Virus record (IMG/VR): IMGVR_UViG_3300025018_000098 | Span: 32,001-96,000 of that record | Direction: 5' to 3' (one strand) | Length of the DNA stretch: 64,000 nucleotides | DNA from: a virus | In this document: in pieces, positions 1 to 63,629 of the stretch | How positions within the stretch are numbered: position 1 is the stretch's first letter | How the letters are laid out: the number at the start of each line of letters is the position of its first letter | The notes under the pieces: model-generated | Told to the model about the DNA's origin: nothing | What the model saw: only the letters and a program-made list of their open reading frames with translations | Databases searched by the model: none | Position numbers and translations under genes: made by a program

Positions 1-1370
1 TTCCACGTGACATGGTCCGGAAGCACCACCTTCTTCTTCAGGGCATCCTGTGGGGACAGCATCTCTGTCTTGCCCGTCTTGAGGTTGTACAGGCGCACCA
101 GCGGCTGCCGGTCCTTCGTCTGCGTCCCTGACGTGAGGTGAAGCATCGTCCCCGGGCTGCCCTCCGGCGTGAACACGGGGTCGAGGAAGCCAAGCTGGGA
201 AGGGTCTACGGCCCGGCTCGAGTCAGACAAGGCGTGGTCAGACTTGACGCCGCCGTCGCCCATGATCGTGACCTGCGACCTGTCCGCCAGCATCGAGAGG
301 GGGTTGGTCTGTGTGGCGAGGGTTCCGATACCGTCCTTGGCGAACACATGAACGACGGGATCTCGGAACAGGTCCGGCATCACAACGTTGCGGATGGCGC
401 TCGAGTGCCCAGCCAAGATGGCCTCACGCACCTTCGGCTTCGCCAGGGACTTCATGATGCGTGTATGGATGCCCTTCTTGGACGTCCGCAGCTGGTCGAC
501 GAAGTGATCGGTAGGCGTCCAGAGCTCCTTGAAGTGGAGGGCATCGATGGGGTCCGAGTCTACCTTGCCTGCGCTCACATTCAGCAGCTTCGAGGACGCA
601 CGTAGGATGCCGTCTTCGTTTACGTGGTCGTGCGCCTTGCCCAGTGTCGTCTTCATGACGTCTGGGTCAACCTGGGTGGACTGGAAGTAGGACTCCACGG
701 CCATCTTAGGCGTAACCCCAGTGGGCATCGCAGAGCCGTGCACCTGCTTGTAGAACTTGGCCAGATCCTTCTCAGGGTTGGACTTCTTCTTATTGCTCTC
801 GAATGCCTCAGCGCCCCAGGCCTTCTTCATGGCCTCGTCGGATACCCCAGCAGCCTGGAGTACTGAGTACACGGGGATCTTGTTGCCGATGTCCATGGAC
901 ATGGAGCCGGTGGCAGGATCCATCACAATCTCAAAGCGCTTGCCCTTGGACAGCTGGAACTGTGCCTTGAACTCCCCGTCTCGCTCTGTGGGTTTGACGT
1001 ACGCGCCGGGCTTCAAGCGCCACTGGTTGCGGAGGATCTTTTCCTTGCCATCCACGATGTAGCTGTAGTGCCGGGTGGTCTTCGGGATCTCAGCCAGGTT
1101 CACGTTGTCCCGTGTGACGTGGACCTTACCTGTCGCCTTGTCTACGATCTCCACGGTCCCCAGCACTGGGACGCTCCAGCTCTGCCCCTTCATGCGTGCA
1201 GCGAGCTGTCCCTTGATATCGTCGATCCCCTTTTCGTCGTGCGCCGTGATGCCGGAGACCCGCACCTCGAACTCCCCCGAGGGGTCGTCCATGGGGAAGG
1301 TGCTCTTGATCTCGTCGATGAACTGGGTACGGAGCTCGTCGAACTGATGGGTGGGGTCGGTGTTCAGCAC
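1..1370 (-). CDS. rpoB: Phage-encoded DNA-directed RNA polymerase beta subunit, N-terminal ~456 aa (continues past window edge)
   Basis: Not in ORF track; hand-translated open frame from GTG 1370 (in-frame TAG at 1380-1382). [33 protein letters not shown] matches RpoB [81 protein letters not shown] matches [23 protein letters not shown]...RDVHPTHYGRVCPIETPEG. Confidence 0.93.
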   Translation of the reverse strand, partial: [456 protein letters not shown]

Positions 1371-1376
1371 GCTTGC

Positions 1377-1406
1377 AGTCTACTCGGCAGGTGTTTCGGG
1401 GGTCAA
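1377..1406 (-). promoter_or_regulatory. Class B promoter TTGACC-N18-TAGACT, 6 nt before GTG of rpoB-like gene (leaderless)
   Basis: -35 at 1406-1401, -10 at 1382-1377; no Shine-Dalgarno. Confidence 0.75.
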
Positions 1407-1420
1407 TCATACCCCCGAAA
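1394..1420. repeat. Perfect 10-bp inverted repeat between divergent promoters
   Basis: TTTCGGGGGT-caatcat-ACCCCCGAAA. Confidence 0.85.
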
Positions 1421-1435
1421 AGCCTTTCTTGTGTG

Positions 1436-1453
1436 GCCTATAAGCAACGTGGA
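1436..1453 (+). promoter_or_regulatory. Class A phage promoter motif
   Basis: GCCTATAAGCAACGTGGA; the same 11-mer core occurs at 11149, 54415(-) and 63612. Confidence 0.8.
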
Positions 1454-5874: not shown

Positions 5875-7767
5875 CTATTGCAGGGAGGCTCGCCGTGGGG
5901 GGAGCTGCTCAGGCATGGGACGCATGTCTACGCCGGTCCCTGGCGCAGGGCCGATCATGTTCTGCCGCACGAGCTCCGCCATCTCAGGCTGACTCTTCTG
6001 CAGCTGGGCCATGTGCTGCTGCCGTACCTCCATGGGGAGGCCTTGGAGCTGTTGAGCATACCCCTGTGCCAGCTGGTTCAGTGGGATGCCCGTCCCGGCC
6101 CCAGAGAGGCCAGAGCCCTGTGAATCCTGGAACGGGCTGCTGCTCTCCCCAGAGTCCGCCTCAGCGGCAGCCTGGGCCTCCTGCTGAGCTCTGCGCTGGG
6201 ATTCCATCATCACCTCTTCAGACTTGGCCTGGTACCGAGCTGATGTCACACCCGCCTCGCCCTGAGCCTCCGCCATGAGGAGCTGCTGCTTCTTGGTGGC
6301 CTCGGACTTGATGGCAGACTCAGCGATGATGAGCTTGTTCTCGTCCTCCATCTTGAAGTCGGAGAGGCCCAGCAGCGTGGTGTCGGAGAGCTTGGATGCC
6401 TGGTTCAGCTGGAAGGCGTACGCCTGACGCTGCAGGTCATCGGCCATCTTGAAGGGCTTGAACCGTCCCTCGATCTCTGGCCAGCCCAGGAATGCACCCA
6501 CACGCTGGATGACCCACTTGAGGAGACGGTACTGAGCTCGCACATTCGAGAGGAAGAAGTTCTCGAGCATACGCATGGAGACGCTGGTCCCGGCGTATGA
6601 CGCATTCCCGAACACGAGCTCTACCGGGAAGCCCATCCCTACTGTCAGCATCTCGCCCATCATGCGGATCTCTTGCATGAGGAGTAGGTTCCGGCCGTTC
6701 TCTCCAATGGTCTGCTGTCCCAGGGGGAAGGGCAGGATACCTACGTAGGCAGGGTCGAGACGCTGCCTGGTGAGCTCCCGCTGGATGTGTGTGCGCCAGT
6801 CTCGCAGGTCCACGGTACTGAACGGGTCTGCCCCTGCTGTGGCCGGCTGGGGGTACAAGAAGATCTGCGGCATCAAGTGCGTGAGGAGTACGGACTCCTG
6901 GGCCTTCTTCATGATCTGCATGTAGAAGGCATCCTTCAGCACGGGCATCAGAAGGGGGGTACCCCAGCCTCGCTCCGTACTGGACAGGGTCGGGCGGCGC
7001 ATGTGGAACACCTCCCGCTTGTCGAACACGAGAAGGCGGTCTGCCTTCGCAGCCTGAAGGAAGATCTCAGGCGTCGTAGACACCAAGTCCTTGCGTCCCA
7101 TCGTGAGCTCTCGCTTGAACTGCGAGGGCATGTCCAGCGCGTAGTCGTACCGACCCGTGGACTCGTTGTAGAAGATCGTGACGTTCTCCGGGTTCCACCG
7201 GATGAGGTTGATCTCAGAGGGCTTGGTGTAGTAGTCGTCTCGGCTGTTCGCGAAGTCGCTGTTGCCACACTTGGGGCAGGTCAGCCAGAACTTGTGGTTC
7301 GTGTAGCGCCAGTGCTGGCGGGACGTGATGGCGTCATGTGTCTTCGAACACGAGCCGCAGATGATCTGCTTCCGGAAGGGGAAGCTAGCCGAGATGAAAA
7401 CGTTCCCGTAGACATAGTAGTCGAGGTTGGCTTCGAACTGATGGACCGGGTAGTTGAGGTCCCCGTCCATGAACCCCTGCCACTTGTCCCGGACGCTGAG
7501 GCTCTTGTGCTGCATCGCCAGGTCAGTGACCGGGTACTCCGCTGCTCGAGTACAGATGGAGTTGATGATGCCGTGAGTCAGGTAGTAGTACCTGCAGAAG
7601 CTAAACAGGCTCTTGATGGAGGGTGGCGTGTAGGTGGACGCCTGGTCGAAGAACGGGTTCGCGAACGGAGCGTACTGCCGCCCAAGGATGTCTTGCTTGC
7701 TGGCCGAGTGAGCAAAGGTGGCTCCGCGGCCAGCACCAGCCATCGATGACGAGTTATTGAAGAACAT
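5875..7767 (-). CDS. Portal protein with Zn-ribbon insertion and Gln-rich C-terminus
   Basis: Portal-like segments YYLTHGIINSICTRAAEYP, VFHMRRP..WGTPLLMPVL, GMGFPVELVFG; inserted CGSC...CPKC. Confidence 0.75.
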   Translation of the reverse strand: MFFNNSSSMAGAGRGATFAHSASKQDILGRQYAPFANPFFDQASTYTPPSIKSLFSFCRYYYLTHGIINSICTRAAEYPVTDLAMQHKSLSVRDKWQGFMDGDLNYPVHQFEANLDYYVYGNVFISASFPFRKQIICGSCSKTHDAITSRQHWRYTNHKFWLTCPKCGNSDFANSRDDYYTKPSEINLIRWNPENVTIFYNESTGRYDYALDMPSQFKRELTMGRKDLVSTTPEIFLQAAKADRLLVFDKREVFHMRRPTLSSTERGWGTPLLMPVLKDAFYMQIMKKAQESVLLTHLMPQIFLYPQPATAGADPFSTVDLRDWRTHIQRELTRQRLDPAYVGILPFPLGQQTIGENGRNLLLMQEIRMMGEMLTVGMGFPVELVFGNASYAGTSVSMRMLENFFLSNVRAQYRLLKWVIQRVGAFLGWPEIEGRFKPFKMADDLQRQAYAFQLNQASKLSDTTLLGLSDFKMEDENKLIIAESAIKSEATKKQQLLMAEAQGEAGVTSARYQAKSEEVMMESQRRAQQEAQAAAEADSGESSSPFQDSQGSGLSGAGTGIPLNQLAQGYAQQLQGLPMEVRQQHMAQLQKSQPEMAELVRQNMIGPAPGTGVDMRPMPEQLPPRRASLQ

Positions 7768-8642
7768 CAGCCTTGCTCATCTTTCTTCTTGCCCCGGAAC
7801 TTGTCTGCAGCGGAGTACAGCATTTGGCCAGGGATAAGAGGTAGTCCCCCACCTAACACACCTGCGCCCACCATAGCTATGTTGCTAGCGACGTTCCGGC
7901 CGCGCTGCTTCAGATCTTTGTCTCCGGTGACAGCTTCCTTGGCCGCCATGGCAGCCGGGAGTGCCACCATCGCCTTACCGACAGTGGACCCACCTGTGGA
8001 GTTCTCCCAAAGGCCCTTCGCTGCAGCCTTCGGATCCTTCTTGAATGCCTTGGCGATGCCTGGGAGCGTCGTGTACCCAGCGTCTCGAGCGGCCTGCTGA
8101 GATGCACCACCCTGCAGGACCTCCTTCGCTCGAGCTGCAGATGCGGCCGGGTCGATCTTGATGCCTCGCTTAGCAGCATCAGCATCACGAAGAGCGTGAA
8201 GTGCATTCGTGCGTTTCGCCTTCGCCACGCCCCCCATCCCAATGGCATCTGCGTTGCCCAACCCAGTGACCCCATGCACCTGGCGCTTGGCGAAGTTCGT
8301 GGCGCTGGTCACGCCGCGCTTAGCAGTGCCTGCGATCGCCCCAGGGATGGACTTCTTACCTGTGAGAAGCATGGTGTCCCGGACTGCCCCGGAACCCATG
8401 GCGGCACCACCTGCAGCAACACCCCCGACCGCTGCTCCGCGCAGACCTGCCCGAAGATAGTCCTTGGGCTCGCCGTCCTTACGAAGTGCCTCCCGGCCGA
8501 TGTTGCCCACAGCACCTACGCCAGCACCTAGCGCTGCAGATGAGCCAGGGCTACGCATGAACTTATGCGCGATGCCTGCATAGTTGATGGCGTGCTTTTC
8601 CATCATAACAAGGCGCATGCTTCGCAAAACTTCAGGGGTCAT
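7767..8642 (-). CDS. Gly/Ala-rich basic protein, putative internal head/ejection protein
   Basis: Glycine-zipper-like hydrophobic segments; TGATG-coupled to portal; N-terminal MEKHA. Confidence 0.55.
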   Translation of the reverse strand: MTPEVLRSMRLVMMEKHAINYAGIAHKFMRSPGSSAALGAGVGAVGNIGREALRKDGEPKDYLRAGLRGAAVGGVAAGGAAMGSGAVRDTMLLTGKKSIPGAIAGTAKRGVTSATNFAKRQVHGVTGLGNADAIGMGGVAKAKRTNALHALRDADAAKRGIKIDPAASAARAKEVLQGGASQQAARDAGYTTLPGIAKAFKKDPKAAAKGLWENSTGGSTVGKAMVALPAAMAAKEAVTGDKDLKQRGRNVASNIAMVGAGVLGGGLPLIPGQMLYSAADKFRGKKKDEQG

Positions 8643-8648
8643 CTGGCT

Positions 8649-8655
8649 ACTGTAC
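8649..8655 (-). promoter_or_regulatory. Class B -10 (GTACAGT), 6 nt before ATG 8642
   Basis: G-TACAGT-AGCCAG-ATG; no SD. Confidence 0.65.
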
Positions 8656-8674
8656 CTCGAAGGCTAGTCACAAG

Positions 8675-9637
8675 TCACTTCGCGACGCTGTGTAGCTGTT
8701 GGATGAGGTGTTGGCGCACCTGGTTTCTATAGTCCCAGTGCGTCAGTAGTTTGTAAACACCGTTCCCCATTGTGTCGTGAGGGACGTGATCAACTGCCTC
8801 TTCCAGCGGGAGGTGCTTCAGCTTCTCGTAGAGCGCCTTAGCCTCATCCCGAACTGCATCGTTGGGGCCTGGGATCTTGTGCACGTTGCTTGACCCGCAG
8901 GCAACACAGGTGACGTCGTTGTCGTCCTGCTCTACTAGACCGCAGTCCTTGCACGTGATTTTGCGGTCATCGAGGATGCGCTGTGCGAAGGATAGGGGGC
9001 TCGGTAGATAGTCAACCCCCGCATCCTTGGCGGCCACAGCAATGAAGCGATCGATGTCGTCCGTAGGCTTACGCTCGGGGTCGATCAGCTTGGCCGTATC
9101 CGCCATGGCGGCGAGGTGCCCCAGTTCCGGGAGCTCCAGGTAGACGATGTTGGGCTGCTTCCCGGCCAGCCCTCGAGCCACCCAGTGGAACACCTCCCAC
9201 TGTCGCCATGGGGACGGACTGGTCAGGAGGACCTGCACCGCCATGATCTTGGCCCACACGCTGTTGGATAGCTGAATACCATCCTTGCGCATGGTCTCTC
9301 GAAGCACCTCGGCATCCCACTCCAGATACTCTTCGCCGTACTTGTCCAAGAGCAGGAGGGATAGAACCAACGGGTGGGCATTAGGGTGACGCCAGATGTT
9401 CTTCGGCGTGACCTCTGGTGCGGCACCACCTCCATTTGGTCGCTGCGCCGCAACCTTGTCCATGCCCGCAGGCATCTCACGTATCCAGCCTGGCAGCGTT
9501 GCTTGGACGTTAGCTACCAGTGCCTCACAAGAAATCGGTGGAGCAGCCGGGGGCTGTACACGCTGGGCGGTCTTGATGAAGGGCGGGGTACGCCCCGAGA
9601 GAGGCCACTGCCTGTTGATGATGTCGTCGCTAAACAT
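8675..9637 (-). CDS. Head-cluster protein with Zn ribbon, ~320 aa
   Basis: GGAG SD before ATG 9637; CKDC...CVAC; GTACTCT -10-like element at 9653-9659. Confidence 0.65.
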   Translation of the reverse strand: MFSDDIINRQWPLSGRTPPFIKTAQRVQPPAAPPISCEALVANVQATLPGWIREMPAGMDKVAAQRPNGGGAAPEVTPKNIWRHPNAHPLVLSLLLLDKYGEEYLEWDAEVLRETMRKDGIQLSNSVWAKIMAVQVLLTSPSPWRQWEVFHWVARGLAGKQPNIVYLELPELGHLAAMADTAKLIDPERKPTDDIDRFIAVAAKDAGVDYLPSPLSFAQRILDDRKITCKDCGLVEQDDNDVTCVACGSSNVHKIPGPNDAVRDEAKALYEKLKHLPLEEAVDHVPHDTMGNGVYKLLTHWDYRNQVRQHLIQQLHSVAK

Positions 9638-9688
9638 GATGCTCCAAGACAGAGAGTACACCAATCTTGAAGCATGTAAGCAACGAAG

Positions 9689-11107
9689 CTAGGAGCGGGC
9701 GGACTGTCCGGCGTCATCAGAAGCTAGGCGAGCCAACGCATGCTTCTGGGGGTCCGGCAGCGCGGTGAAGAATCCGACGGGGTCCTTTTGGAAGTCGGGC
9801 CACATATCCTCCTCGAACGCGCTGCAGAAGACGTTCTTGCCTCGAGACGCATAGCTGCGGAGCATGTCGTCATTGACGTAGTCAGACCCATGGTTCCAAG
9901 AGAAGTTCTCGGTGTTCTTCTCCGTGGCGTCTGACCGCGACGAGATGGCGGTGCCTTCCGCAGCGAACTTCGCAGAGCCGTACACCGCGGCGTATGGATC
10001 CCGGAAGCCCACGACGGCCTTGTTGTACGCTCCCGACACGCCCATGGCCGTGTCCGCCTCAACCAGGGCAGCGACCATCTCCTCTGGGGTGTACGAAGCC
10101 ACCTTGCTGCGGAGCTCCGTGTACGTGTCCACGCCCTCGATACCCTCGAAGGAGTTGGCACGGGACAAGAGCTCGAGATCGATGTGTGGTCCGAAGCCAT
10201 CCCCGGCGTAGTCGAGAACACGACCTGCGAGCTTGACCCCCACAGCCTGCGCCCTCTGGTAGACCGCATCCGCGTACTGCCTACGTGTTCCCTCCGAGAA
10301 GGAGCCCCAGTACTCGTCGAAGTAGGCAGACGCTTCCTTCACCTGGCTGTAGGTATCGATGGGGTACTTGCGCTCGTCGCGCAGGGCGAAGTGCTTGTTG
10401 TACTCCGCCACCTTCTTGGCTGGGGCGCCCAGGCCCGTGATGTCGGCCCCGGGCTCCCACTCGCGAGATCCATCGAAGTGGTCCAAGAAGTCGTCCAGCC
10501 CAGACACCTTCTGCTTGGTCCGAGCAGCTGTGTTGAGAGCAGGCTTGATCGTCTTCTCAGACCCAGGCCCGCTCAAGGTGCCCGCCATAGGCATGACGGA
10601 GGAGCCGTTGAGGTCCGCCTGCTTTGTGACATCCGGTGTCTCGAGAGCCCCAGACTGCACTCGTTGGAACTGCGCCATGTCTTTGCGCTTCTTCTCCATG
10701 CCATCCCGAGCGGTCATACCCATGGCCGCCGTGGTCATCAGGGCCCCAAGCACAGCCTTCTTCACCAGAGGCTCTGGAGGGTCGAGGTCGTACCAGGCAC
10801 AAGCGTTGAGCAGATTCTTCGCTGTGGTTGCCTGGGCCGTCTTGGGCAGGATGTGCCCACACTCGAGGAAGTAGATGATCGAGGTGGCCAGGTGCGCCTC
10901 ATCGTGCATGGCGTACTTGCGGAGGGTCTCCTCACCGTTTGCCGCAACGAGCCCAAACATACGGTCTGGGAGACGCGCCAAGTCAGGCGCTTCGAGCAAG
11001 TCAGCGGAGGCCAGCTTCGTGGGCAATGCACCCCCTGCCAACTTCTTACGTAGGACGATCCCCTGGAGGTCATCGTACACATCAAGGATTAGGCCTGCGG
11101 TCTTCAT
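9689..11107 (-). CDS. Head-associated protein with two DUF6582-like repeats
   Basis: LPDRMFGLV..RKYAMHDEAHLATSIIYF and HFALRDERKYPIDTYSQVKEASAYF; many K-x-A motifs. Confidence 0.6.
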   Translation of the reverse strand: MKTAGLILDVYDDLQGIVLRKKLAGGALPTKLASADLLEAPDLARLPDRMFGLVAANGEETLRKYAMHDEAHLATSIIYFLECGHILPKTAQATTAKNLLNACAWYDLDPPEPLVKKAVLGALMTTAAMGMTARDGMEKKRKDMAQFQRVQSGALETPDVTKQADLNGSSVMPMAGTLSGPGSEKTIKPALNTAARTKQKVSGLDDFLDHFDGSREWEPGADITGLGAPAKKVAEYNKHFALRDERKYPIDTYSQVKEASAYFDEYWGSFSEGTRRQYADAVYQRAQAVGVKLAGRVLDYAGDGFGPHIDLELLSRANSFEGIEGVDTYTELRSKVASYTPEEMVAALVEADTAMGVSGAYNKAVVGFRDPYAAVYGSAKFAAEGTAISSRSDATEKNTENFSWNHGSDYVNDDMLRSYASRGKNVFCSAFEEDMWPDFQKDPVGFFTALPDPQKHALARLASDDAGQSARS

Positions 11108-11114
11108 GCCGACA

Positions 11115-11144
11115 AGGATACGCCGGGCGCCACAACGAGGTCAA
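11115..11144 (-). promoter_or_regulatory. Class B promoter TTGACC-N18-TATCCT, 7 nt before ATG 11107
   Basis: Same -35 and spacing as the rpoB-like promoter; no SD. Confidence 0.72.
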
Positions 11145-11148
11145 CGCC

Positions 11149-11166
11149 GCCTATAAGCAATGTGAA
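11149..11166 (+). promoter_or_regulatory. Class A promoter heading the replication operon
   Basis: GCCTATAAGCAATGTGAA. Confidence 0.8.
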
Positions 11167-11185: not shown

Positions 11186-11704
11186 GTGGCAATGATTGGT
11201 ACGAAGCGGGGCCCCACTGGGCACCTGAAGAACTGCAACCTATGGGGAGAGTACGAACAGGCGGGGACCTCCGCAGAAGCAAACCTGTGCAACGGCGGGA
11301 GGTTCGGGAACGAGGTGTGGGCGCGGTGCCCCAGCGTGATGGACTGCCGCAAGGCCACCTACCAAGCTCAAGAGTCCTCCCAAGCACCGAGCCGCATCAT
11401 CGGGAGCACCCAACTGAACAGGTACAGCCGAACAGGCACCAGCATCTCAGGTCTGGTGCAGAGGAAAACAGAGACTCCGTCCGTGGGGCTACGGAAAAGG
11501 ATTCCTGGGGTCGAGGCAGAAGTGGTAGACATGGGTGGCGCCAGCCACTCGCCTGTGTTCCTTCCCTCAGATGGTGAGGGGACCTTCACACGAATGGCCA
11601 AGAACATGGGCCAGGGTGCTATCGCCGCCATGTTCTTCCACGGGCTAGCCATCGCACAGTCGGTGGACTTCTTCCCACACAACACCAACAGAGAAAACGA
11701 GTAA
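11186..11704 (+). CDS. Hypothetical protein with N-terminal Cys cluster
   Basis: AGGAG SD; GTG 11186 or ATG 11192; C..C..CPSVMDC. Confidence 0.65.
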   Translation: MAMIGTKRGPTGHLKNCNLWGEYEQAGTSAEANLCNGGRFGNEVWARCPSVMDCRKATYQAQESSQAPSRIIGSTQLNRYSRTGTSISGLVQRKTETPSVGLRKRIPGVEAEVVDMGGASHSPVFLPSDGEGTFTRMAKNMGQGAIAAMFFHGLAIAQSVDFFPHNTNRENE

Positions 11705-11705
11705 G

Positions 11706-13106
11706 ATGCACATTGTTCAACGGAAGCCAGATCTCGGTTACTTCGACAACTGGCTCTGGCTTCCCAAGAGCAAGATCTCGGCGACGCAGCTGCAGTCGTC
11801 TCTTTCCTATGACAACGCAAGGAAGAATGAGGTCTTGCATGCCTGGGTAGAGACGCCCCACCACTACAAGGTGCCCCGCAACTACTACGGGCTGGACACC
11901 CTAGCGAAGCTTCCCTATCCAGTGATCGACTCGCGGTTCACCGCGTTCCCTCGAGTGAACCTACAGAGCCGGGTCGTTCTTGACTCCCTGGAAGAAGGTC
12001 AGACATATCAGCAGGATGGGTCCAACGCGCTGCTGAGCACCTACGACGGTATTCTTTGTCTACGGTGCGGCGCCGGAAAGACCGTTGTTGCTTTGCATAC
12101 CGCGGCACAGCACCAGGTTCCCATCCTCGTGGTGGTTACGGACAAAGGATTGGCCGCCCAGTGGGTGAAGGAGATCAAGTGGATACTTGGCCTCGAGGAT
12201 GAAGACATTGGGCGTGTGGGTGGCGATAAGGGGCAGTTCAACTGGCAGAAGCCTGTCACTGTGGCCATCGTCAACACTCTGGCCAAGCGGGCGTGGGACA
12301 ACTCCCTGCCTCCGGAAATGCTTCGGCACTTCGGCATCATCCTCATCGACGAGACTCACGTGATGGGTGCTCCATGGTTCAACGCAGCCATCCCGCCCTT
12401 CCATGGTCGTCGTTGGGGCCTGTCCGCCACGCCCACTCGTGAGGACGACTTCAACTCCCTACTGACGCACACGGTGGGGAACGTCGTGTACTCCTACCTC
12501 ATGCCTGACCTACGGCCCGAGGTCTTCTTCAGGCAGCTCCCCACGAAGTTGCTCGTACACAAGCAAGAGATCTTCCAACTCACGCACGACGTCTCGGGGC
12601 AGTTCCACTTCGGCAAGACCTACGGGTACTTCGCCAACCACGACCAGGCCCGCACAGAGACCATCGTAGCCGACATCAAGAATGCCCTATCCGTGGGACG
12701 AGAAGTCCTTGTGCTGACGCACAGCAGAGACATGTGCGATGTGCTGGGCAAGTACTTCGACAACGCTGGGGTGTGCCATGGAGGTGTGTCTGAAGTAGAG
12801 CGGGCTCGTCGAGTAGACGAGTGTAACCCGGTCATCTGCATCATGCAGCTGGGCAAGCAGGCCCTCGACAAGCCGAAGCTGGACACCCTCTTCGTAGTCG
12901 AGCCCTTCCGGAAGGAGGGGATGCTGCAGCAAACGATGGGCCGCATTCTCCGGAACGAGGCGAACAAGCAACAACCAGTCGTTTTCTTCTATGAGGACTC
13001 TGGGATCAAGCCTCTGCGGCTGTTGTGCAACAAGATCCGCAAAGCATTCGCGCGCTGGCCCGATATCAAGGGTGGGCGCATTCCGTACAAAGTCATAACG
13101 AAATGA
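11706..13106 (+). CDS. Superfamily 2 DExH helicase (UvsW/XPB-like)
   Basis: Motifs CGAGKT, DETH, SAT, QTMGRILR. Confidence 0.92.
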   Translation: MHIVQRKPDLGYFDNWLWLPKSKISATQLQSSLSYDNARKNEVLHAWVETPHHYKVPRNYYGLDTLAKLPYPVIDSRFTAFPRVNLQSRVVLDSLEEGQTYQQDGSNALLSTYDGILCLRCGAGKTVVALHTAAQHQVPILVVVTDKGLAAQWVKEIKWILGLEDEDIGRVGGDKGQFNWQKPVTVAIVNTLAKRAWDNSLPPEMLRHFGIILIDETHVMGAPWFNAAIPPFHGRRWGLSATPTREDDFNSLLTHTVGNVVYSYLMPDLRPEVFFRQLPTKLLVHKQEIFQLTHDVSGQFHFGKTYGYFANHDQARTETIVADIKNALSVGREVLVLTHSRDMCDVLGKYFDNAGVCHGGVSEVERARRVDECNPVICIMQLGKQALDKPKLDTLFVVEPFRKEGMLQQTMGRILRNEANKQQPVVFFYEDSGIKPLRLLCNKIRKAFARWPDIKGGRIPYKVITK

Positions 13107-13113
13107 GAGACCA

Positions 13114-13539
13114 ATGAAGTTGAGCTACGTAAACGGAGATGGGTGCCCCATGGTGGTGGACCTCACCACAAACGACTGGGCAGGAGATCTCTGCCTGGTG
13201 ATGCAGGGCCGAGACACTTGGATCGGCTTTGGGACACCTGTGCTTGAAGAGGTATCCCGGTTCGACCTCTGGCACGTCCTGATGGTGCACAGCGAGACCC
13301 GATTCGTGCAGGGCCCTCCAGGTAGCCAGGGATTGGGCCTGCAGAGCCCTACTGCCTCGGTGCCTCCGTACCTGTCCTCTCCCATCCCACGCATGACGTT
13401 CTTGGGCGCGTTTGCTTTTGCTGAGCTGGGCGACACAGACCCTGGGTCACCCCTGTACGAGACCCTAGTGGGCGGATACCAGAAGGTGATGTGTCCGCCT
13501 GTCATCGTCCAGCCTCCAAAGAGCAACTTGGTGCTCTAG
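13114..13539 (+). CDS. Hypothetical protein, 141 aa
   Basis: Tightly packed in operon, GAGA upstream. Confidence 0.65.
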   Translation: MKLSYVNGDGCPMVVDLTTNDWAGDLCLVMQGRDTWIGFGTPVLEEVSRFDLWHVLMVHSETRFVQGPPGSQGLGLQSPTASVPPYLSSPIPRMTFLGAFAFAELGDTDPGSPLYETLVGGYQKVMCPPVIVQPPKSNLVL

Positions 13540-14231
13540 TGTTCACCCACAAGAAGCACCTGGAGCAGGTGGCGAAGGAGTGGGCAGGCTGCACCCTATG
13601 CGAGCTACACGAACTGCGGGATGGGGATATCATGTTCGGGGACGGCCCCGTCCCTGCTGAGATCCTCTTCATCAGTTCCGCCCCGACCGAGAGTGACGAG
13701 GAGTACACGTCGCTATTCACCGGAGATGAAGGAGGCCTCCTCGTAGAGATCCTCAACGAGCTCAAGGTCTCCACGGATGGTATCTACCGCACCTCCGCGG
13801 TTGCCTGCCGGCCCAAGGCTCTCATCCCCGCTACGGAAGAAGAGGAAGAGCGGATCGTTCAGATCCAACCAGCGAAAGATCACTTGCAGGCGTGTCGAGC
13901 ACGCCTGTACGAGATCATCTATGCAGTCGATCCTCGAATCATCGTGACCTTCGGGGAGGCGGCGCTGCAGACCCTCCACGTTCAGACGAATGTGGATCGG
14001 GCACCCAAGAAGAAGATCAGTGACGCTCGGGGTGAGATCTACGAGCTCACCATCCCGGGCCGACTAGCGCAGGAGGTCAGATATCCAGTGTTCCCCACAC
14101 TGGACCTGACGTACCTGATCAAGAACCCATCGTCAGCAGCACACGGCCCCATCAACACCGTGTTCAACGACCTTGGCAACGTCATGCAGTACCTACAGTG
14201 GACGAAGGACAACGAAAACAATGAAGACTAA
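13539..14231 (+). CDS. Uracil-DNA glycosylase family 4-like Fe-S protein with degenerate active site
   Basis: TAGTG overlap; CTLC, FGDG..AEILFI, ACRP, ACRARL..II.AVDPRIIVTFG. Confidence 0.8.
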   Translation: MFTHKKHLEQVAKEWAGCTLCELHELRDGDIMFGDGPVPAEILFISSAPTESDEEYTSLFTGDEGGLLVEILNELKVSTDGIYRTSAVACRPKALIPATEEEEERIVQIQPAKDHLQACRARLYEIIYAVDPRIIVTFGEAALQTLHVQTNVDRAPKKKISDARGEIYELTIPGRLAQEVRYPVFPTLDLTYLIKNPSSAAHGPINTVFNDLGNVMQYLQWTKDNENNED

Positions 14232-14667
14232 GACCGGCAAGAAGATCAACAGCGTCCCCATGAAGGTGGTGGCTGCGCGGTCGGAGTTCGAAGGGGCACA
14301 GGCTGCCCTCGAGAGCTTCCGAAACACCCACCTCGACGTCTTGGAGGAGTACGACGCCCTGGTTGGGCACTACAACGCATCAGTGGATGCATTCAAGGCT
14401 GCCGTCAGCGACAACGCCGAGGTGCTTGGGCGTGAATATGGCCCCATGCGCATCTCGATCCCGGACACCCTCGATGTGGAGGCTCTCAAGGAGGCCCTGG
14501 GTGATCGTGCGGAAGCGTTCATCAAGACCAAGGAGTCTGTGGACAGCACTGCGTACAACTCGGCCCTCAATGCCGGAACCATCAAGGCCGACGTGGATGC
14601 CAAGGTGCGCAAGAAGGGATCTCCTCGCATCACAGCTCCCAAGCCCGTCGGAATCTACGCACGATGA
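14221..14667 (+). CDS. Hypothetical protein, 148 aa (weak Gam/Gp157-like resemblance)
   Basis: Coiled-coil N-half; FIKTKESVD segment; good codon bias. Confidence 0.6.
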   Translation: MKTKTGKKINSVPMKVVAARSEFEGAQAALESFRNTHLDVLEEYDALVGHYNASVDAFKAAVSDNAEVLGREYGPMRISIPDTLDVEALKEALGDRAEAFIKTKESVDSTAYNSALNAGTIKADVDAKVRKKGSPRITAPKPVGIYAR

Positions 14668-15062
14668 TCGAGACAGAAGTGGAGGTGCTTCTCCAGAAAC
14701 GAGAGGTGGAGCACCTCTGCTTTGTCCAGAAGCACTACAACACACTTGAGGAGGAACTCATGCGAGCTCTCGGCAAAGATCGATTCGTGGCCCTTCTGGG
14801 GGACAAGCGTGCCCGTGTGCGCGTCAACATCACAGAGCGTCTCTCCGGCCCCAACAACACCTACAGCTCCATCAGCATCGGAACCACTGTCGAGATGACA
14901 TGCAACCAGTCCGCTGCAGCCATCGAGGAGGCGGAGGAGCTGGTGACTAAGATGTGCCTGGCCCACCAGGACAAACACATAGAGCCAGTATACCGGGGGC
15001 TCCTCGAGCACTTGGTGCGCCTGGACAGCACCCTAGACGAGTTCGAGAAGGAGCTCGAGTAG
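14664..15062 (+). CDS. Hypothetical protein, 132 aa
   Basis: ATGA overlap with previous gene. Confidence 0.7.
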   Translation: MIETEVEVLLQKREVEHLCFVQKHYNTLEEELMRALGKDRFVALLGDKRARVRVNITERLSGPNNTYSSISIGTTVEMTCNQSAAAIEEAEELVTKMCLAHQDKHIEPVYRGLLEHLVRLDSTLDEFEKELE

Positions 15063-15409
15063 TGGCCCACACAGGCTTCAAGGGATGCCGCATTGGCATC
15101 CGAGCCTTCAGCATCCAGGGGTCGAGCATCATAGCTGATGTGGACTTCCTGGATGAGGAGGGCGTCTCCCACGCACAGACGAGGCACACCTTCCCAGCCT
15201 CTGCGGTCCCAGAGATCGGAGAGGCGGTGGGGAACCTCATGACCCTCGTCATCAATGAAATCGCCCGCAAGCACTTCGATGCTCCGGGAGGGTTTCCCAG
15301 TGAGCCCGAGAAAGTAGTACATGGAATCCGAGAAGCCCTCGCCGCCAAAACTCCCCAAGGGATTGATCCCTTTGGAAGCGGTGACGACCCAAGTGACGGA
15401 CAAGGCTAG
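15062..15409 (+). CDS. Hypothetical protein, 115 aa
   Basis: TAGTG overlap, AAGGAG SD. Confidence 0.6.
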   Translation: MAHTGFKGCRIGIRAFSIQGSSIIADVDFLDEEGVSHAQTRHTFPASAVPEIGEAVGNLMTLVINEIARKHFDAPGGFPSEPEKVVHGIREALAAKTPQGIDPFGSGDDPSDGQG

Positions 15410-16394
15410 CAGGTACCTGCCAGACCTTCGCTACAGCGCCGCGGTGGAGTCCCCACCTCACTACGGCATCATCCCACTCAGTGAGTGGACAGGAAACAAA
15501 CTGGTTGCAGACGACGTAGGGCTCTACCTCTCCAATGGTGAGGGGCGGAGCCCTTTCCTGTTTACGGACTGGAGCCGCTCTCAGCTACTCTCTCTTCTGG
15601 GGACCAAGGAACGCTGGTTCCGCACAGTGTCCCTTGGGCAGCAGGTGGCTGAGCTCAACATGCGCCTACACGCTCTGGAGCCCTACCGCATCCGGCTAGA
15701 GAGAGCCGCTGGGGGAGGAGACCACGACATTCACTACGTCCGAGGCATCGTGTCCAAGCAGTATGCGGAGATCACGGACGTGCACGTCATGGAGCAGCTG
15801 ACCCGTGGGCTGAAGGCTCCCGTGTATGCGCTGGCCAAGTACACCAAGCAGACAGACCGGGCGTCCTACGCCTACTTACTGTCCAATGACTCCATCTCTG
15901 TGACGGGCGGTCAGGGAGTGCTCCCTGGTATCTTGGTGAAGAACAGCGAGGTTGGGTACACATCTCTGTGGGTACACCTGTTCCTGTTCTTCCAGAAGAC
16001 AGGACACATCGCGGTACGCAAGGCTCCCCTGTTGCGTCGCATCCATCGAGGAAGCGTCGCTGACCTACACAAGCAGTTCGCAGAGGCGCAGGAGTCTGCG
16101 GCTGGGCTCTGGGAGGACATCCAGAGTAAGCTCGCCATCCTTGAGTTCGCGGCGGTGGCCAGCGAAGACGCGGCTCTGCGCCGTATGGAGGTGCTCTGCA
16201 GCAATGCAGGAGCCCCCCGCTCGTACACGCTACGGTGTGTGCAGCACTACAAGGCCGCAGGGCACCAAGTCCACACGGCCCTCAAGATATTCGAGTCGGT
16301 CGCTGCAGTGGCGGCCAAAGAGGGTGCTGGGAACCTAGACCAGGCACACATCAACCACATTGTCGCCGGGGCTGTGCTCTTCAGCTTGCTCTGA
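15321..16394 (+). CDS. DUF932-like protein
   Basis: RGIVSKQYAEITD and GILVKNSEVGYTSL..RRIHRG resemble DUF932; start uncertain. Confidence 0.6.
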   Translation: MESEKPSPPKLPKGLIPLEAVTTQVTDKASRYLPDLRYSAAVESPPHYGIIPLSEWTGNKLVADDVGLYLSNGEGRSPFLFTDWSRSQLLSLLGTKERWFRTVSLGQQVAELNMRLHALEPYRIRLERAAGGGDHDIHYVRGIVSKQYAEITDVHVMEQLTRGLKAPVYALAKYTKQTDRASYAYLLSNDSISVTGGQGVLPGILVKNSEVGYTSLWVHLFLFFQKTGHIAVRKAPLLRRIHRGSVADLHKQFAEAQESAAGLWEDIQSKLAILEFAAVASEDAALRRMEVLCSNAGAPRSYTLRCVQHYKAAGHQVHTALKIFESVAAVAAKEGAGNLDQAHINHIVAGAVLFSLL

Positions 16395-16520
16395 GACCTA
16401 CCACCTGTGGGGCACGCGGTCGTGTGCCCTGCGCTACCACTAGCAGTGCATGGGTATGTTGTTGCCAACCCCGACTGGGGTCGGTAGAACAGCTGCCCGC
16501 CATATTCCCAGGAGAGGCCC

Positions 16521-20431: not shown

Positions 20432-20434
20432 CAC

Positions 20435-22444: not shown

Positions 22445-22461
22445 CTCACGGAAAGAGGAAT

Positions 22462-22632
22462 ATGGAAAAGTACGGTGTCCAAACCAATCCAGAAGAGATG
22501 GTCAAGCAGGGTGGGGGCTGCGAACGAGAAGACTGCCCCAAGGAGCTCGACCACTCGACCAACCCGCCCAAGTGTGCCGTGTGTGGGTACGAACACCTGA
22601 GCGGCAGCAAGGAGGTTCCCGATGGCCGGTAA
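22462..22632 (+). CDS. Small Zn-ribbon protein, 56 aa
   Basis: GAGGA SD; MEKYGVQTNPEEMVKQGGGCEREDCPKELDHSTNPPKCAVCGYEHL...; below track cutoff. Confidence 0.7.
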   Translation: MEKYGVQTNPEEMVKQGGGCEREDCPKELDHSTNPPKCAVCGYEHLSGSKEVPDGR

Positions 22633-24519: not shown

Positions 24520-24520
24520 C

Positions 24521-26509: not shown

Positions 26510-26747
26510 GAAGCTCGAGACCATTACGGTGGATCTCGACACAGAGGCTCATGCACCCACCTTCGTGGTTTGCTACGGTCGAAGTACGACATTCCGTGTC
26601 GAGGGCAGGCAGGCAACCGTAGACCAGGGTTCTCGGTCTGTGGTACATCGCTCGCTCTGCGTCAGCCGACCTTACGGGGATGAGCGCTGTGGGCTGTGCC
26701 CGCAACGCATCTTCACCATCTCCTTGGAGGCCCGAGGAGCAACCTGA
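26502..26747 (+). CDS. Hypothetical protein, 81 aa, Cys-containing
   Basis: Overlaps rusA stop; CVSR...CGLC. Confidence 0.6.
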   Translation: MNKKLETITVDLDTEAHAPTFVVCYGRSTTFRVEGRQATVDQGSRSVVHRSLCVSRPYGDERCGLCPQRIFTISLEARGAT

Positions 26748-41426: not shown

Positions 41427-41435
41427 ACCTTACCA
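41427..41435 (-). promoter_or_regulatory. Class B extended -10 (TGGTAAGGT)
   Basis: 6-nt spacer to ATG 41420. Confidence 0.65.
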
Positions 41436-46664: not shown

Positions 46665-46673
46665 AGTCTACCA
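46665..46673 (-). promoter_or_regulatory. Class B extended -10 (TGGTAGACT)
   Basis: 6 nt before ATG 46658; no SD. Confidence 0.75.
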
Positions 46674-47326: not shown

Positions 47327-47344
47327 TTCACCTTGCTCATAGGT
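47327..47344 (-). promoter_or_regulatory. Class A promoter variant
   Basis: ACCTATGAGCAAGGTGAA in intergenic DNA. Confidence 0.65.
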
Positions 47345-52484: not shown

Positions 52485-52493
52485 AGTCTACCA
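52485..52493 (-). promoter_or_regulatory. Class B extended -10 (TGGTAGACT)
   Basis: 6 nt before ATG 52478; no SD. Confidence 0.75.
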
Positions 52494-52963: not shown

Positions 52964-53194
52964 TCAGAGCTCCCCGGCCAGGAAGCTGGTGATGTCGTCG
53001 GTGACCAGCACCTCAGCCTCGGCAGTGTTGCTTCGGCTGAGGCGATCACTCCCAGTTCGACCACGAAGGACACTCTTCATGAAGGTCACCTCGTCCTCGA
53101 GGCGGGTCTTCTCGTAGGTGTACCAAGAGTCGAGTGCCTCCTTGAGACGGTCGAGCTTAGCGTTTCGTGCGTCAATCTGGGATTGGGTAGCCAT
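52964..53194 (-). CDS. Hypothetical protein, 76 aa
   Basis: TGATG-coupled to sigma gene. Confidence 0.65.
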   Translation of the reverse strand: MATQSQIDARNAKLDRLKEALDSWYTYEKTRLEDEVTFMKSVLRGRTGSDRLSRSNTAEAEVLVTDDITSFLAGEL

Positions 53195-54003
53195 CAGGTC
53201 TTGTCCAGGTAGGGCTTGAGCTTCTCGAAGATCCTCGAGCGCACCCGGTAGACGCGGTCAGGCCTGAGGTCTGTCTTCTTCGCGACGGCGTTTGCATCGA
53301 AGTTCTTCTTCGACAGCTGTCCGCCCGGGTACATCGCCTGAAGGACCTTGTTCTCCTCTTCGTTGAGGATCGAAGGTGCCATCGAGATGATAGTCTTGAT
53401 CTGGCTAGGGGTCTGCAGGTCCATGTCACTGCGCGTGGGATCCATCCCCGTGTAGAGCTCACGTCGGATGCCCTTCTGCATCCGCTTGACCTGGTTGAGC
53501 CCCGCGTTGCCCGGCCACTGGAGGTGCGTCTGCAGCTCTTCTGGGGAGGGATCTCTTCCGTGAATGACCTTCAGCTCGTTGAAGGCGTTGTTATACTCCT
53601 GGTAGTTCTGTGTGTCGCTCTTGGACATGCGCGCGAAGTTACGACCCTTGGCCGCGTCCTCGCTGTACCGCTGGAACTGGGTGTACACGTGGGTCTTGAG
53701 CTTCGCCCCAGCCTCCGGGTTGTACGACTTGATGCCCTTCAGCATGTACTGACGCAGCTTGGCCTCCGTCGCCCCCGTGGGGAGTGCTCCGCCGTAGCCC
53801 GCGCTGTACCCCCTGGCCTTGGCCCTGACGAGCGGCTCCATGCTCGTCATCAAGGGGAGGAGATGTTTGTCTTGGCGCCCGTTCTGGTCCCACTTGTGCC
53901 AGAGGTCATGTTCCTTGCTCTCACGACCTTTGACCTCAGCGTACCGACCAGCACGGGCCGCCTGGTTGAACGCCTCGACACTGGCCTTCTTTTTCTTCGC
54001 CAT
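53194..54003 (-). CDS. Phage sigma-70-family factor (regions 2, 3, 4; FliA/SigF-like architecture)
   Basis: Region 2 PLVRAKARGY..MLKGIKSYNPEAGAKLKTHVY; region 3 ELKVIHGRDPSPEELQTHL; region 4 LNEEENKVL..AVAKKTDLRPDRVYRVRSRIFEKLK. Confidence 0.85.
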   Translation of the reverse strand: MAKKKKASVEAFNQAARAGRYAEVKGRESKEHDLWHKWDQNGRQDKHLLPLMTSMEPLVRAKARGYSAGYGGALPTGATEAKLRQYMLKGIKSYNPEAGAKLKTHVYTQFQRYSEDAAKGRNFARMSKSDTQNYQEYNNAFNELKVIHGRDPSPEELQTHLQWPGNAGLNQVKRMQKGIRRELYTGMDPTRSDMDLQTPSQIKTIISMAPSILNEEENKVLQAMYPGGQLSKKNFDANAVAKKTDLRPDRVYRVRSRIFEKLKPYLDKT

Positions 54004-54407: not shown

Positions 54408-54425
54408 TCCAGGTTGCTTATAGGC
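54408..54425 (-). promoter_or_regulatory. Class A promoter upstream of the sigma operon
   Basis: GCCTATAAGCAACCTGGA, intergenic. Confidence 0.78.
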
Positions 54426-54947: not shown

Positions 54948-54954
54948 AGTGTAC
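54948..54954 (-). promoter_or_regulatory. Class B -10 (GTACACT)
   Basis: G-TACACT-CCCCCC-ATG. Confidence 0.7.
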
Positions 54955-58555: not shown

Positions 58556-58564
58556 AACTTACCA
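58556..58564 (-). promoter_or_regulatory. Class B extended -10 (TGGTAAGTT)
   Basis: 6 nt before ATG 58549. Confidence 0.7.
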
Positions 58565-59796: not shown

Positions 59797-59803
59797 AGTC
59801 TAC
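59797..59803 (-). promoter_or_regulatory. Class B -10 (GTAGACT)
   Basis: 6 nt before ATG 59790. Confidence 0.72.
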
Positions 59804-63000: not shown

Positions 63001-63590
63001 TGCTGTTGGCCGAAGCCGCGGCCCATATGCCCCTGACCACCTTGGAAGTTGAAGTTCTGGCGCAGGGTACTGTTCAGCTGAGTCTGGTCTTGGATACCTC
63101 CTGTGAACGCCCCCGCGTATGCTCCCACAGCCTTCGATGCAACGTAGGCAGGCAGCATGGCACCACCGGCCATGGCAAGGCCTCCGGCCATACCCATCAT
63201 ACCCCCACCCATTGCGGTGGACGCACGCATACCGAGGCCTATTGCGGAGAAGGGATCACCAAAGGCCCCCATGGCTCCGGACATCATCAGCCCGGCCCCG
63301 GCCACGGGCATCGCGACGTTACGGCCGAAGGAGCCGATACCCGCAGCCATCCTTTCGCCAGCCATGCCTACATCGCCACCGTACGCCGCCGTGACGGCCA
63401 GGTTTCTGGCGGCTCCGCCCGGGTGCGGCATCGGCATCGGCGGCGGAGGCGGGGGAGGTGCCATCCCTCCTTGACCGCCCGGGCCACCATACGCGGAGTA
63501 GCTCATCTGCTGCGCATACCCAGCATTCTGGGCGAACATGGCGTTACCTGCAGCGATGGACTGCGAGATGTAGCTTGAGTCGTAAGGCAC
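60018..63590 (-). CDS. Tail tape measure protein, 1190 aa
   Basis: Long helical G/A/M/Q-rich protein with hydrophobic Gly-rich segments, upstream of tube initiator and hub. Confidence 0.75.
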   Translation of the reverse strand: MPYDSSYISQSIAAGNAMFAQNAGYAQQMSYSAYGGPGGQGGMAPPPPPPPMPMPHPGGAARNLAVTAAYGGDVGMAGERMAAGIGSFGRNVAMPVAGAGLMMSGAMGAFGDPFSAIGLGMRASTAMGGGMMGMAGGLAMAGGAMLPAYVASKAVGAYAGAFTGGIQDQTQLNSTLRQNFNFQGGQGHMGRGFGQQQMGGIGAAINQELRSNSLTNSGELNSLISGGAQAGMFQGVSSVGEFSSKFKQMLDTLKTVQKELGGSLNEALKFVEDAKTSGIFGQMDRSQFAKNVREVTQATGMSRAEAMQMSAQGAQIARSVGGTGRQGAFGAMRGASTLGAAITMGAVSKESLSEATGGLTGTDAISAFTTNMMQRTAEFSRRPMGRYALAALSNSDATGLDAGRTNQFLMGSMSIGDIRRNAHSNLSQIGRARFINREGDLRGGLLERGGMAGQIGMMRAAIGDRALSQGDDLGSLVMQRRFHMGRRESEVMMGLIRNQGDIAIQEESTRQSGQRGADRESDMAQNRSFDAFMSHLGHGLANETGVTKAREMGTRFATRFASRVEAMMDRMIGGTTGGMSEGMSRITGRIASGSASSSDFRDIVDATQRAGTRGRGPMDLESRGLFETGASRASILRGRGVDPTGMTQQGLLEEMQQTRMARMGMVTSDRDVSDMARIGEIGQGEMLHRINMARLGARAAGGHGDIYGRIEGGFSGNAIDATIARAGGTDFGVSINAGNTANGGGSFWDRLMGNTPAGEAASQERDSLDFIAAGGHAASSRRRRVRESRRARGAIDHHNRRSANTEEEDMLLEQADSLSMNREDFTALQDNEEYMALYRDTIAALDEDGADSETFKARMEQMSVMSNRAGANGGAMTSLQEQIRTAAAEHGESTSELRNARFSESDIQAAQEAQARMRANHAGAIQALSGIEGTGPAQDALRRLQGASSREDRETAQSDFHQVVGSMDRNSEEYSQLMAALQDNNLGALGMSATQRANDMEVLGGGGRRGRRQAQEHAEGILTGQTVGEMSFTGRGGQEVSGRRARSMLRDAARNMGREGEVGERAARTMREYESQLAEQLGGGSAALATAQQSSELMRRLAEQPNNPEAQRAVADFRTEHRAEFAQAAQSRATAAAERRDPLGVARNQHLQKIAGAITGTLNVNIVAGGPDAPADPNAGGGTTPPPASE

Positions 63591-63596
63591 GACGGA

Positions 63597-63603
63597 AGTC
63601 TAC
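63597..63603 (-). promoter_or_regulatory. Class B -10 (GTAGACT)
   Basis: 6 nt before GTG 63590. Confidence 0.72.
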
Positions 63604-63611
63604 ACGATATC

Positions 63612-63629
63612 GCCTATAAGCAGTACGAA
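63612..63629 (+). promoter_or_regulatory. Class A promoter
   Basis: GCCTATAAGCAGTACGAA. Confidence 0.78.

What the first reader, a model, noticed from the sequence alone, without database searches (positions are those of the whole stretch)
1..63629. Self-contained transcription system: phage RNAP beta, phage sigma factor and a two-class promoter code, apparently wired in inverted (N4-like) order
Seen: an RpoB homolog (1..1370), a sigma-70-family gene (53194..54003) and two distinct motifs. Class A (CCTATRAGCAAnnTGRA) precedes non-structural units and the sigma operon. Class B (G-TAnnnT-N6/7-start) precedes structural genes and the RNAP gene. Class B looks like a housekeeping sigma-70 promoter (two have TTGACC-N18, four have TGn extensions); class A does not (no T at -7, no conserved -35). 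Established: N4 uses a virion RNAP for early genes and host RNAP for late genes; phiKZ-like phages package a multisubunit RNAP but use phage RNAP for late genes. Inference: because RNAP is co-regulated with virion genes, it (perhaps with the sigma) is packaged and reads class A early, while host holoenzyme reads class B late. Alternative: class A expresses the sigma early and it then directs class B.
Basis: partly seen in the sequence, partly recalled or inferred. Interest (0 to 1): 0.92.

Follow-up and report, generated by a model that had tools for sequence, protein, structure and literature searches.

The report
Phage polymerase-sigma with two promoter classes
An uncultured 169-kb groundwater phage encodes a one-chain bacterial-type RNA polymerase and a single sigma factor that probably travel in the virus particle and switch on early genes from a phage-specific promoter, while host-type promoters that make leaderless messages drive its structural genes; this reversed order is known from other phages, but not with a sigma-dependent, cell-like enzyme.

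Summary
Observation confirmed, with corrections. The 'RpoB' is the first 456 aa of a 2059-aa beta-beta' fusion with no alpha gene. The sigma is a real sigma70-family protein lacking the housekeeping WW dyad, orthologous to gp10 of Salmonella phage Arash; gp10 and the polymerase are both in Arash's published particle proteome. Class A (about 27 sites genome-wide) heads non-structural units, has a weak upstream element, and keeps its core in Arash and Vibrio D69. Class B is a -10 box 6-7 nt before start codons (leaderless mRNA geometry) on virion-side genes. TTGACC-N18-TAnnnT is conserved at the polymerase gene across relatives. The sigma has both an A and a B site upstream in 8 of 8 close complete genomes. 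Arash and D69 carry a second, WW-type sigma; this lineage has none detectable. Best model (0.55): packaged phage holoenzyme reads A early and host holoenzyme reads B late, so the system is not self-contained. No start site or timing is measured. N4, phi14:2 and P23-45 are precedents for the order. This scan has already reported the family on other genomes. New variant of a known kind.

The parts
1..1370 (-). 5' 456 codons of a 2059-aa single-chain beta-beta' RNA polymerase (whole gene G000 27191-33370); GTG start, leaderless geometry
   Evidence: start conserved in relatives
1377..1406 (-). Class B promoter of the RNAP gene: TTGACC (1401-1406), 18 nt, TAGACT (1377-1382), 6 nt, GTG
1437..1453 (+). 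Class A site, back to back with the RNAP promoter; heads a 45-codon ORF (1461-1598) and the AAA/VWA unit
   Evidence: same arrangement in relatives
5875..11107 (-). Class B-led head block: g37 (K-x-A-rich, 9689-11107), g36, g35 and portal g34 (Arash gp204 orthologue)
8649..8654 (-). Class B box, 6 nt before ATG 8642 (not conserved at this position in relatives; weakest member)
11115..11144 (-). Class B promoter of g37: TTGACC (11139-11144), 18 nt, TATCCT (11115-11120), 7 nt, ATG
11150..11166 (+). Class A site heading the replication block, 5 nt from the divergent B -35 box
11192..27070 (+). Class A-led replication block: SF2 helicase, UDG, DnaB, primase, PolA, RecA-like
26223..26239 (+). Class A-like site (1 mismatch) inside a coding region; also present in the orthologous gene of G001, but could reflect coding constraint
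36080..36085 (-). Class B box, 7 nt before ATG 36072 (1149-aa gene)
41427..41432 (-). Class B box with TGn, 6 nt before ATG 41420; conserved in G001, G002, G004
46665..46670 (-). Class B box with TGn, 6 nt before ATG 46658, just downstream of a 16-bp terminator-like hairpin
47327..47343 (-). Class A site, with upstream GCTAA element, heading three small ORFs
52485..52490 (-). Class B box with TGn, 6 nt before ATG 52478
53194..54003 (-). Sigma70-family factor (regions 2-4, 269 aa), Arash gp10 orthologue, no WW dyad, N-terminal K-x-A site
54408..54424 (-). Class A site 421 nt upstream of the sigma; heads g84 (true start 54400, 131 aa)
54948..54953 (-). Class B box, 6 nt before ATG 54941 (g85); reads towards the sigma
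58556..58561 (-). Class B box with TGn before the 1189-aa gene (Arash virion gp8 orthologue)
59797..59802 (-). Class B box before the 406-aa gene (Arash virion gp6 orthologue)
63597..63602 (-). Class B box, 6 nt before GTG 63590 (1190-aa gene)
63613..63629 (+). Class A site divergent from the 63597 B box; heads the nucleotide-kinase unit

Best explanation
The particle carries the single-chain beta-beta' core and the phage sigma (inferred). After injection this holoenzyme reads class A (core CCTATRAG, a downstream GTG-type block and a weak upstream GCTAA element) and makes leadered, Shine-Dalgarno mRNAs for host-takeover, nucleotide and replication genes, plus more sigma through the A site ahead of the sigma gene (inferred). 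Late, the host housekeeping-sigma holoenzyme reads class B and makes leaderless mRNAs for virion proteins, the polymerase and the sigma, reloading new particles (inferred). The -10-only B sites probably need a phage activator or host shut-off, not identified. Shown: the genes, both motifs, their gene-class split, their conservation, and one detectable sigma. Not shown: start sites, timing, packaging in this phage, and which enzyme reads B.
For: Packaging: Arash beta gp206 is the top protein of the particle proteome (128 unique peptides), beta' has 40 and sigma gp10 has 24; the second sigma gp196 is absent from the list (PMC10585845). The window's sigma is the gp10 orthologue (E 2e-17), in the same tail-gene context. 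22 of its 30 closest homologues carry K-x-A/S in the first 26 aa against 11% background, the motif enriched in head-region proteins. A read by this sigma: the core ATAAG/ATCAG with a downstream GTG block heads non-structural genes in G000, G001, G004, Arash and D69, whose cultured hosts differ. 26 of 27 A sites lead non-virion units; the exception is the sigma operon. The sigma has an A site and a B site upstream in 8 of 8 close complete genomes. Sigma-core fit: predicted complex of sigma region 2 with the beta' clamp helices scores 0.73, best of 3 controls 0.42; the mark was reached by 58 of 80 solved and 2 of 110 mismatched pairs; runs agree in at least 70% of contacts; partner pLDDT at least 72. 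This is a textbook pair, so it shows likeness only. B read by host: TTGACC-N18-TAnnnT-N6/7-start at both the RNAP gene and g37 in G000 and six relatives (two of them partial), and the same pattern in 5 more complete genomes with 0 in controls. The phage sigma lacks the W433/W434 dyad. No second sigma in 9 complete genomes. Clamp-helix arginines equivalent to E. coli R275/R278/R281 are substituted (their role in sigma70 binding is from my own knowledge). Precedents: PMC4496689, 10.1101/2020.03.07.982082, 10.1101/2022.12.01.518664.
Against: No expression or start-site data. The Arash proteome came from a sucrose gradient, lists 116 proteins including primase and ligase, and its authors allow carry-over. 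In Arash and D69 a phage WW-type sigma exists and late genes carry -10-only TAAAAT boxes, so the family may ancestrally read late boxes with a phage factor; a very divergent replacement could be missed here. The two B promoters with a full -35 should be active in an uninfected host, which fits immediate rather than late RNAP expression. The capsid and terminase genes have no adjacent B box. The host is unknown.
Confidence: 0.55

Rival explanations
1. Packaged phage holoenzyme reads A, but B is read by the phage core after a sigma switch: either it borrows the host housekeeping sigma (hybrid holoenzyme) or it uses an unrecognised phage late factor replacing Arash gp196.
For: Arash and D69 encode a WW-type second sigma and have TAAAAT late boxes, so a TAnnnT-reading sigma working in this family is plausible. 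The core keeps clamp helices and a flap. Many genes here remain unannotated.
Against: No gp196-type or other second sigma was found by profile search in 9 complete genomes. Clamp-helix residues used by housekeeping sigma are changed. A few packaged cores would have to carry all late synthesis until the RNAP gene itself was read.
Confidence: 0.2
2. T7-like order: host holoenzyme reads the two full -35/-10 B promoters at once, making RNAP (and sigma by read-through) de novo; the new holoenzyme then reads A; packaging is incidental.
For: Only the RNAP gene and g37 carry a conserved TTGACC -35. The Arash particle preparation is noisy.
Against: g37 heads the portal block and looks like a head-assembly protein (K-x-A 14 against 4.1 expected). 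The sigma's B site has no -35. Arash beta outranks the major capsid protein in spectra. The sigma's N-terminal K-x-A tag points to packaging.
Confidence: 0.12
3. The phage sigma works partly or mainly on the host core (sigma appropriation, as for SPO1 gp28) to read A; its own A site raises sigma levels early for that purpose.
For: The sigma has a conserved early A site while the RNAP gene has none; extra early sigma without extra core is otherwise unexplained.
Against: The sigma family co-occurs with the phage core in the genomes examined and is co-detected with it in Arash particles.
Confidence: 0.08
4. One reading: class A is read by a host factor, expresses the sigma early, and the phage sigma then directs class B.
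For: The A site before the sigma; T4 gp55-type logic is common (own knowledge).
Against: The A core is shared by phages of Salmonella and Vibrio and by this GC-rich lineage, which points to a phage reader. The sigma lacks the WW dyad while B is housekeeping-like. The Arash orthologue is in particles.
Confidence: 0.05

Closest known systems
Salmonella phage Arash (OQ632216.1; PMC10585845) and Vibrio phages D69/D148/D181
   Same: Homologous RNAP (28-30% identity), orthologous gp10-type sigma in the tail cluster, shared portal, terminase and capsid, same early-type ATAAG core and a TAnnnT-type box before structural genes; RNAP and gp10 detected in Arash particles.
   Different: Here the RNAP is one 2059-aa chain (Arash and D69: two pieces, about 1525 + 610 aa, split inside beta'). 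No gp196-type second sigma. B boxes abut start codons (leaderless) and two have a conserved TTGACC, whereas Arash late boxes precede Shine-Dalgarno leaders. The Arash paper reports no promoters.
mReC clade of RNAP-encoding Caudovirales (Weinheimer and Aylward 2020, PMC7481178)
   Same: Medium-to-large tailed phage with cell-like beta and beta' detectable by standard profiles.
   Different: That paper does not mention sigma or virion packaging. Placement of this enzyme in the clade was not tested with a tree.
crAss-like phage phi14:2 (10.1101/2020.03.07.982082)
   Same: Single-chain virion RNAP for early genes; host RNAP at -35/-10-like promoters for middle and late genes; such motifs are also found upstream of RNAP and portal homologues in relatives.
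   Different: phi14:2 gp66 is a highly divergent two-barrel enzyme, and its early transcripts share no motif. Here the enzyme is cell-like, has a cognate sigma70 protein and a strict early motif.
Coliphage N4 (PMC4496689) and Thermus phage P23-45 (10.1101/2022.12.01.518664)
   Same: Virion RNAP first, host sigma70 holoenzyme last, with phage-modified or phage-activated late transcription.
   Different: Both use a second, non-virion phage RNAP for an intermediate class and no phage sigma; N4 vRNAP is of the T7-like single-subunit kind (own knowledge).
Thermus phage phiYS40 and Deinococcus-Thermus leaderless -10 promoters (PMC3594737, PMC12340547)
   Same: Mostly leaderless middle/late mRNAs; -10 box 6-7 bp before the ORF.
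   Different: phiYS40 has no RNAP of this kind as far as I know. The geometry does not identify the host here.
phiKZ/AR9 jumbo-phage multisubunit RNAPs (PMC7598289)
   Same: Virion-packaged multisubunit RNAP for early genes.
   Different: They encode two split enzymes, read late genes with phage nvRNAP, and their promoter subunit lacks sequence similarity to sigma.

Membership tests
Sigma70 family (g83) | Regions 2, 3 and 4 with sigma fold | tested here: met
Housekeeping-type (group 1/2) sigma | Region 2.3-2.4 aromatic WW dyad | tested here: not met
   the Arash gp196 family does have it
Cell-like multisubunit two-barrel RNAP | Beta and beta' conserved regions with DxDGD catalytic loop | tested here: met
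   (loop reads NGDIDGD)
Cell-like multisubunit two-barrel RNAP | Alpha subunit gene | tested here: not met
   PF01000 no match in G000, 14 of 14 controls positive
Arash/D69-like RNAP phages | Orthologous RNAP, gp10 sigma, portal, terminase, capsid | tested here: met
Arash/D69-like RNAP phages | Second (gp196-type) sigma | tested here: not met
mReC clade | Monophyly with mReC RNAPs in a beta/beta' tree | not tested
   no tree built; mReC reference sequences not fetched
N4/phi14:2-type inverted programme | RNAP in the virion | tested here: inconclusive
   indirect only: Arash proteome, gene context and K-x-A tag on the sigma
N4/phi14:2-type inverted programme | Early RNA rifampicin- and chloramphenicol-resistant; late RNA rifampicin-sensitive | not testable with these tools
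   needs infection experiments; the phage Rif pocket is substituted, so the test would discriminate
Leaderless -10 promoters | TAnnnT 6-7 nt before the start codon, no Shine-Dalgarno | tested here: met
   SD in 2 of 13 B starts against 23 of 29 A-led starts
Leaderless -10 promoters | Transcript 5' end at the start codon | not testable with these tools
   needs 5'-end mapping
phiKZ/AR9-type system | Two sets of split beta/beta' genes | tested here: inconclusive
   one unsplit fused gene found; a dedicated search for a second divergent set was not run

The most novel reading that the evidence does not exclude
An alpha-less, single-chain, cell-like RNA polymerase is injected as a ready sigma70-type holoenzyme, and this lineage has lost the family's late sigma and replaced it with the host housekeeping sigma (on host core, or on the phage core as a hybrid holoenzyme), while also splitting translation mode by stage: leadered early mRNAs, leaderless late mRNAs.
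Probability: 0.35. Interest if true: 0.82.

Novelty: new variant of a known kind. Interest (0 to 1): 0.64.

Why it matters
The deeply branching phage RNAPs of the Arash/mReC type have no biochemical or transcriptional study in the library searched. This finding supplies concrete promoter consensus sequences, a cognate sigma and a wiring diagram, and the early motif carries over to Arash, which grows on a laboratory Salmonella strain, so the model is directly testable. A two-protein, alpha-independent, predicted rifampicin-resistant holoenzyme bears on how RNAP assembles without alpha and how a sigma without the WW dyad melts DNA, and could serve as an orthogonal transcription tool. The one-sigma versus two-sigma split shows a late programme changing hands within a family. 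The reversed order itself is not new.

Tried and rejected
Pfam sigma models PF04542 and PF04545 on the own genome: no match; these miss even the real sigma, so they say nothing on a second one. Pairwise comparison with Arash gp196: nothing. The word-index search gave only 2 sigma homologues; the full HMMER search was needed. The window's exact class A pattern finds nothing in G001-G003 because the core varies; a relaxed core does. The same seed fails in the more distant G005, which has a GATAAG variant and lacks the N6/7 geometry at most orthologues. The generic sigma70 scan misses class B because it allows only 16-18 nt spacers and high consensus. Host assignment failed: GyrB hits are taxonomically scattered, the kinase gave one 28% hit, the capsid protein none in genomes, no WhiB, no tRNAs in the window. 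The hairpin inside g84 is not more stable than shuffles (z -0.21); not claimed as an attenuator. Primary papers on P23-45 and phiYS40 were not held; secondary sources were used. No later paper on Arash or D69 transcription was found. 'Self-contained system' rejected as the lead reading.
Full report
Setting. The window is bases 32001-96000 of a 168,874-bp phage contig with a 188-bp terminal repeat, about 60% G+C, held by aquifer, hot-spring and cold-spring metagenomes. It encodes terminase, portal, capsid and tail genes mostly on the minus strand and a replication block on the plus strand. The host is unknown.

The polymerase. The ORF ending at window 1370 is the 5' end of a 2059-aa protein carrying beta and beta' domains in one chain. 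The catalytic loop reads NGDIDGD and the only four cysteines lie at 1711-1783, so the N-terminal beta' zinc finger is gone. No alpha gene is found. Positions equivalent to E. coli Q513, D516, H526 and S531 are T, T, D and T in the alignment to Thermus beta (E. coli numbering from my own knowledge), which predicts rifampicin resistance. The closest cultured relatives are Vibrio phages D69/D148/D181 and Salmonella phage Arash; uncultured relatives at 52-57% identity keep the fusion where complete.

The sigma. Window 53194-54003 has no direct Pfam hit, but its family does, the family profile matches SigB, SigA and RpoS over regions 2-4, and the predicted fold matches sigma70 chains. Region 2.3-2.4 lacks the tryptophan pair of housekeeping sigmas here and in five relatives. 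It is the orthologue of Arash gp10. In the Arash particle proteome beta gp206 is the most detected protein, beta' and gp10 are well covered, and the second sigma gp196 is not listed; the preparation is noisy and the authors allow carry-over (PMC10585845). A predicted complex puts sigma region 2 on the clamp helices (0.73 against best control 0.42; mark reached by 58 of 80 solved and 2 of 110 mismatched pairs; at least 70% contact agreement; pLDDT at least 72). As a textbook pair this shows likeness, not binding. 22 of 30 close sigma homologues have K-x-A/S within 26 residues of the N-terminus against 11% elsewhere; the lead came from earlier scan notes, and cleavage is untested.

Class A. Six window sites against 0.11 expected; about 27 genome-wide. 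Most lie 24-28 nt before a start with a Shine-Dalgarno sequence. 26 of 27 lead non-virion units; the exception is the sigma operon. A GCTAA-type element at fixed distance upstream occurs in 13 of 23 sites, so 'no conserved -35' is only partly right. The core is kept in G001, G002 and G004, and as GGTATAAG or GTTATAAG with a downstream GT block before non-structural genes of Arash and D69. A motif that follows the phage sigma across unrelated hosts is best read by that sigma (inference).

Class B. TAnnnT sits 6-7 nt before 11 called starts and at none of offsets 2-5 or 8-10; with two corrected starts there are 13, 11 in the window. Only 2 of 13 have a Shine-Dalgarno match. This is the geometry of leaderless transcripts (PMC12340547), as in phiYS40 middle/late mRNAs (PMC3594737). 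The geometry is retained at orthologous genes in relatives. At the RNAP gene and g37, TTGACC-N18-TAnnnT-N6/7-start is conserved in G000 and six relatives, and the pattern recurs in five more complete genomes, in four as a pair about 10-11 kb apart (gene identity there inferred from spacing). Each of these two promoters sits back to back with a class A site. 'Structural' is supported for some B-led genes by Arash virion orthologues (gp6, gp8, portal block) and is positional for the rest.

Dual control and sigma number. In 8 of 8 close complete genomes the sigma has a B box about 950-1150 nt upstream and an A site at 23-421 nt; Arash also has an A-type site 304 nt before gp10. Arash and D69 encode a second sigma with the WW dyad and use -10-only TAAAAT boxes before structural genes. 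Nine complete genomes of this lineage have one sigma and no gp196 orthologue.

Mechanism. Most likely (0.55): particle-borne core plus sigma reads A first; host housekeeping holoenzyme reads B late and refills particles with RNAP and sigma. I put the first half near 0.8 and the second near 0.65-0.7. The main rival (0.2) keeps the first half but has the phage core read B with a borrowed host sigma or a hidden phage factor. Nothing here measures transcription.

Comparison and novelty. Virion RNAP early with host RNAP late is established for N4, phi14:2 and P23-45. RNAP-encoding phages of this size are described (PMC7481178), and Arash particles are reported to hold RNAP and sigma. Not found in the papers searched: the promoter code, the sigma-dependent virion holoenzyme as a tested mechanism, the one-sigma lineage and the leaderless late class. 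This scan has already reported the same family and a similar reading on other genomes; those notes are not counted as support. Verdict: real, new variant of a known kind, interest 0.64.

Noticed in passing
window:46683-46718: 16-bp hairpin, terminator-like on both strands, ending 12 nt before the class B box at 46670; probably insulates the A-led small ORFs from the late gene downstream.
   Followed up: no
window:54339-54367 (-): 12-bp hairpin inside g84, about 40 nt downstream of the class A site and upstream of the sigma; poor U tract, region z-score -0.21.
   Followed up: partly
window:1969-4313 (+): AAA ATPase plus metallopeptidase/VWA pair (DUF2201), conserved in relatives next to the RNAP gene.
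   Followed up: no
window:9689-11107 (-); also L001 and L002 head-region genes: K-x-A enrichment: g37 14 against 4.1 expected, g27 11 against 2.9, g14 10 against 3.7, g19 6 against 1.1; RNAP not enriched. Candidate head-protease sites.
   Followed up: partly
L006:15077-15280 (G000 163951, +): Perfect class A site followed by no ORF but by a tRNA T-loop-like stretch and hairpins; candidate small non-coding RNA.
   Followed up: no
L001:12295-15639 (-): 1114-aa head-region gene with Hint and LAGLIDADG domains, i.e. an intein; the G001 orthologue is 593 aa.
   Followed up: no
L003:6823-9652 (-): PAS histidine kinase and response-regulator hits in a class B-led block just beyond the window.
   Followed up: no
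L003-L006 (G000 94000-168874): Pfam hits among non-structural genes: Tad2-like anti-defence domain, WYL, ThyX, dCTP deaminase, RecD2, pyrophosphatase; genes mostly not assigned individually.
   Followed up: no
L002:3070-4968 (+): GyrB-like gene with its own class A site; a partner A subunit was not looked for.
   Followed up: no
window:1370-1453, 11107-11166, 63590-63629: Three back-to-back A/B promoter pairs with overlapping upstream regions (a fourth, wider pair at G000 108057-108137); could make the two classes mutually exclusive.
   Followed up: partly
G005 (L129-L138): More distant relative with one sigma, a GATAAG variant of class A and mostly no N6/7 leaderless geometry; perhaps a different host group.
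   Followed up: partly
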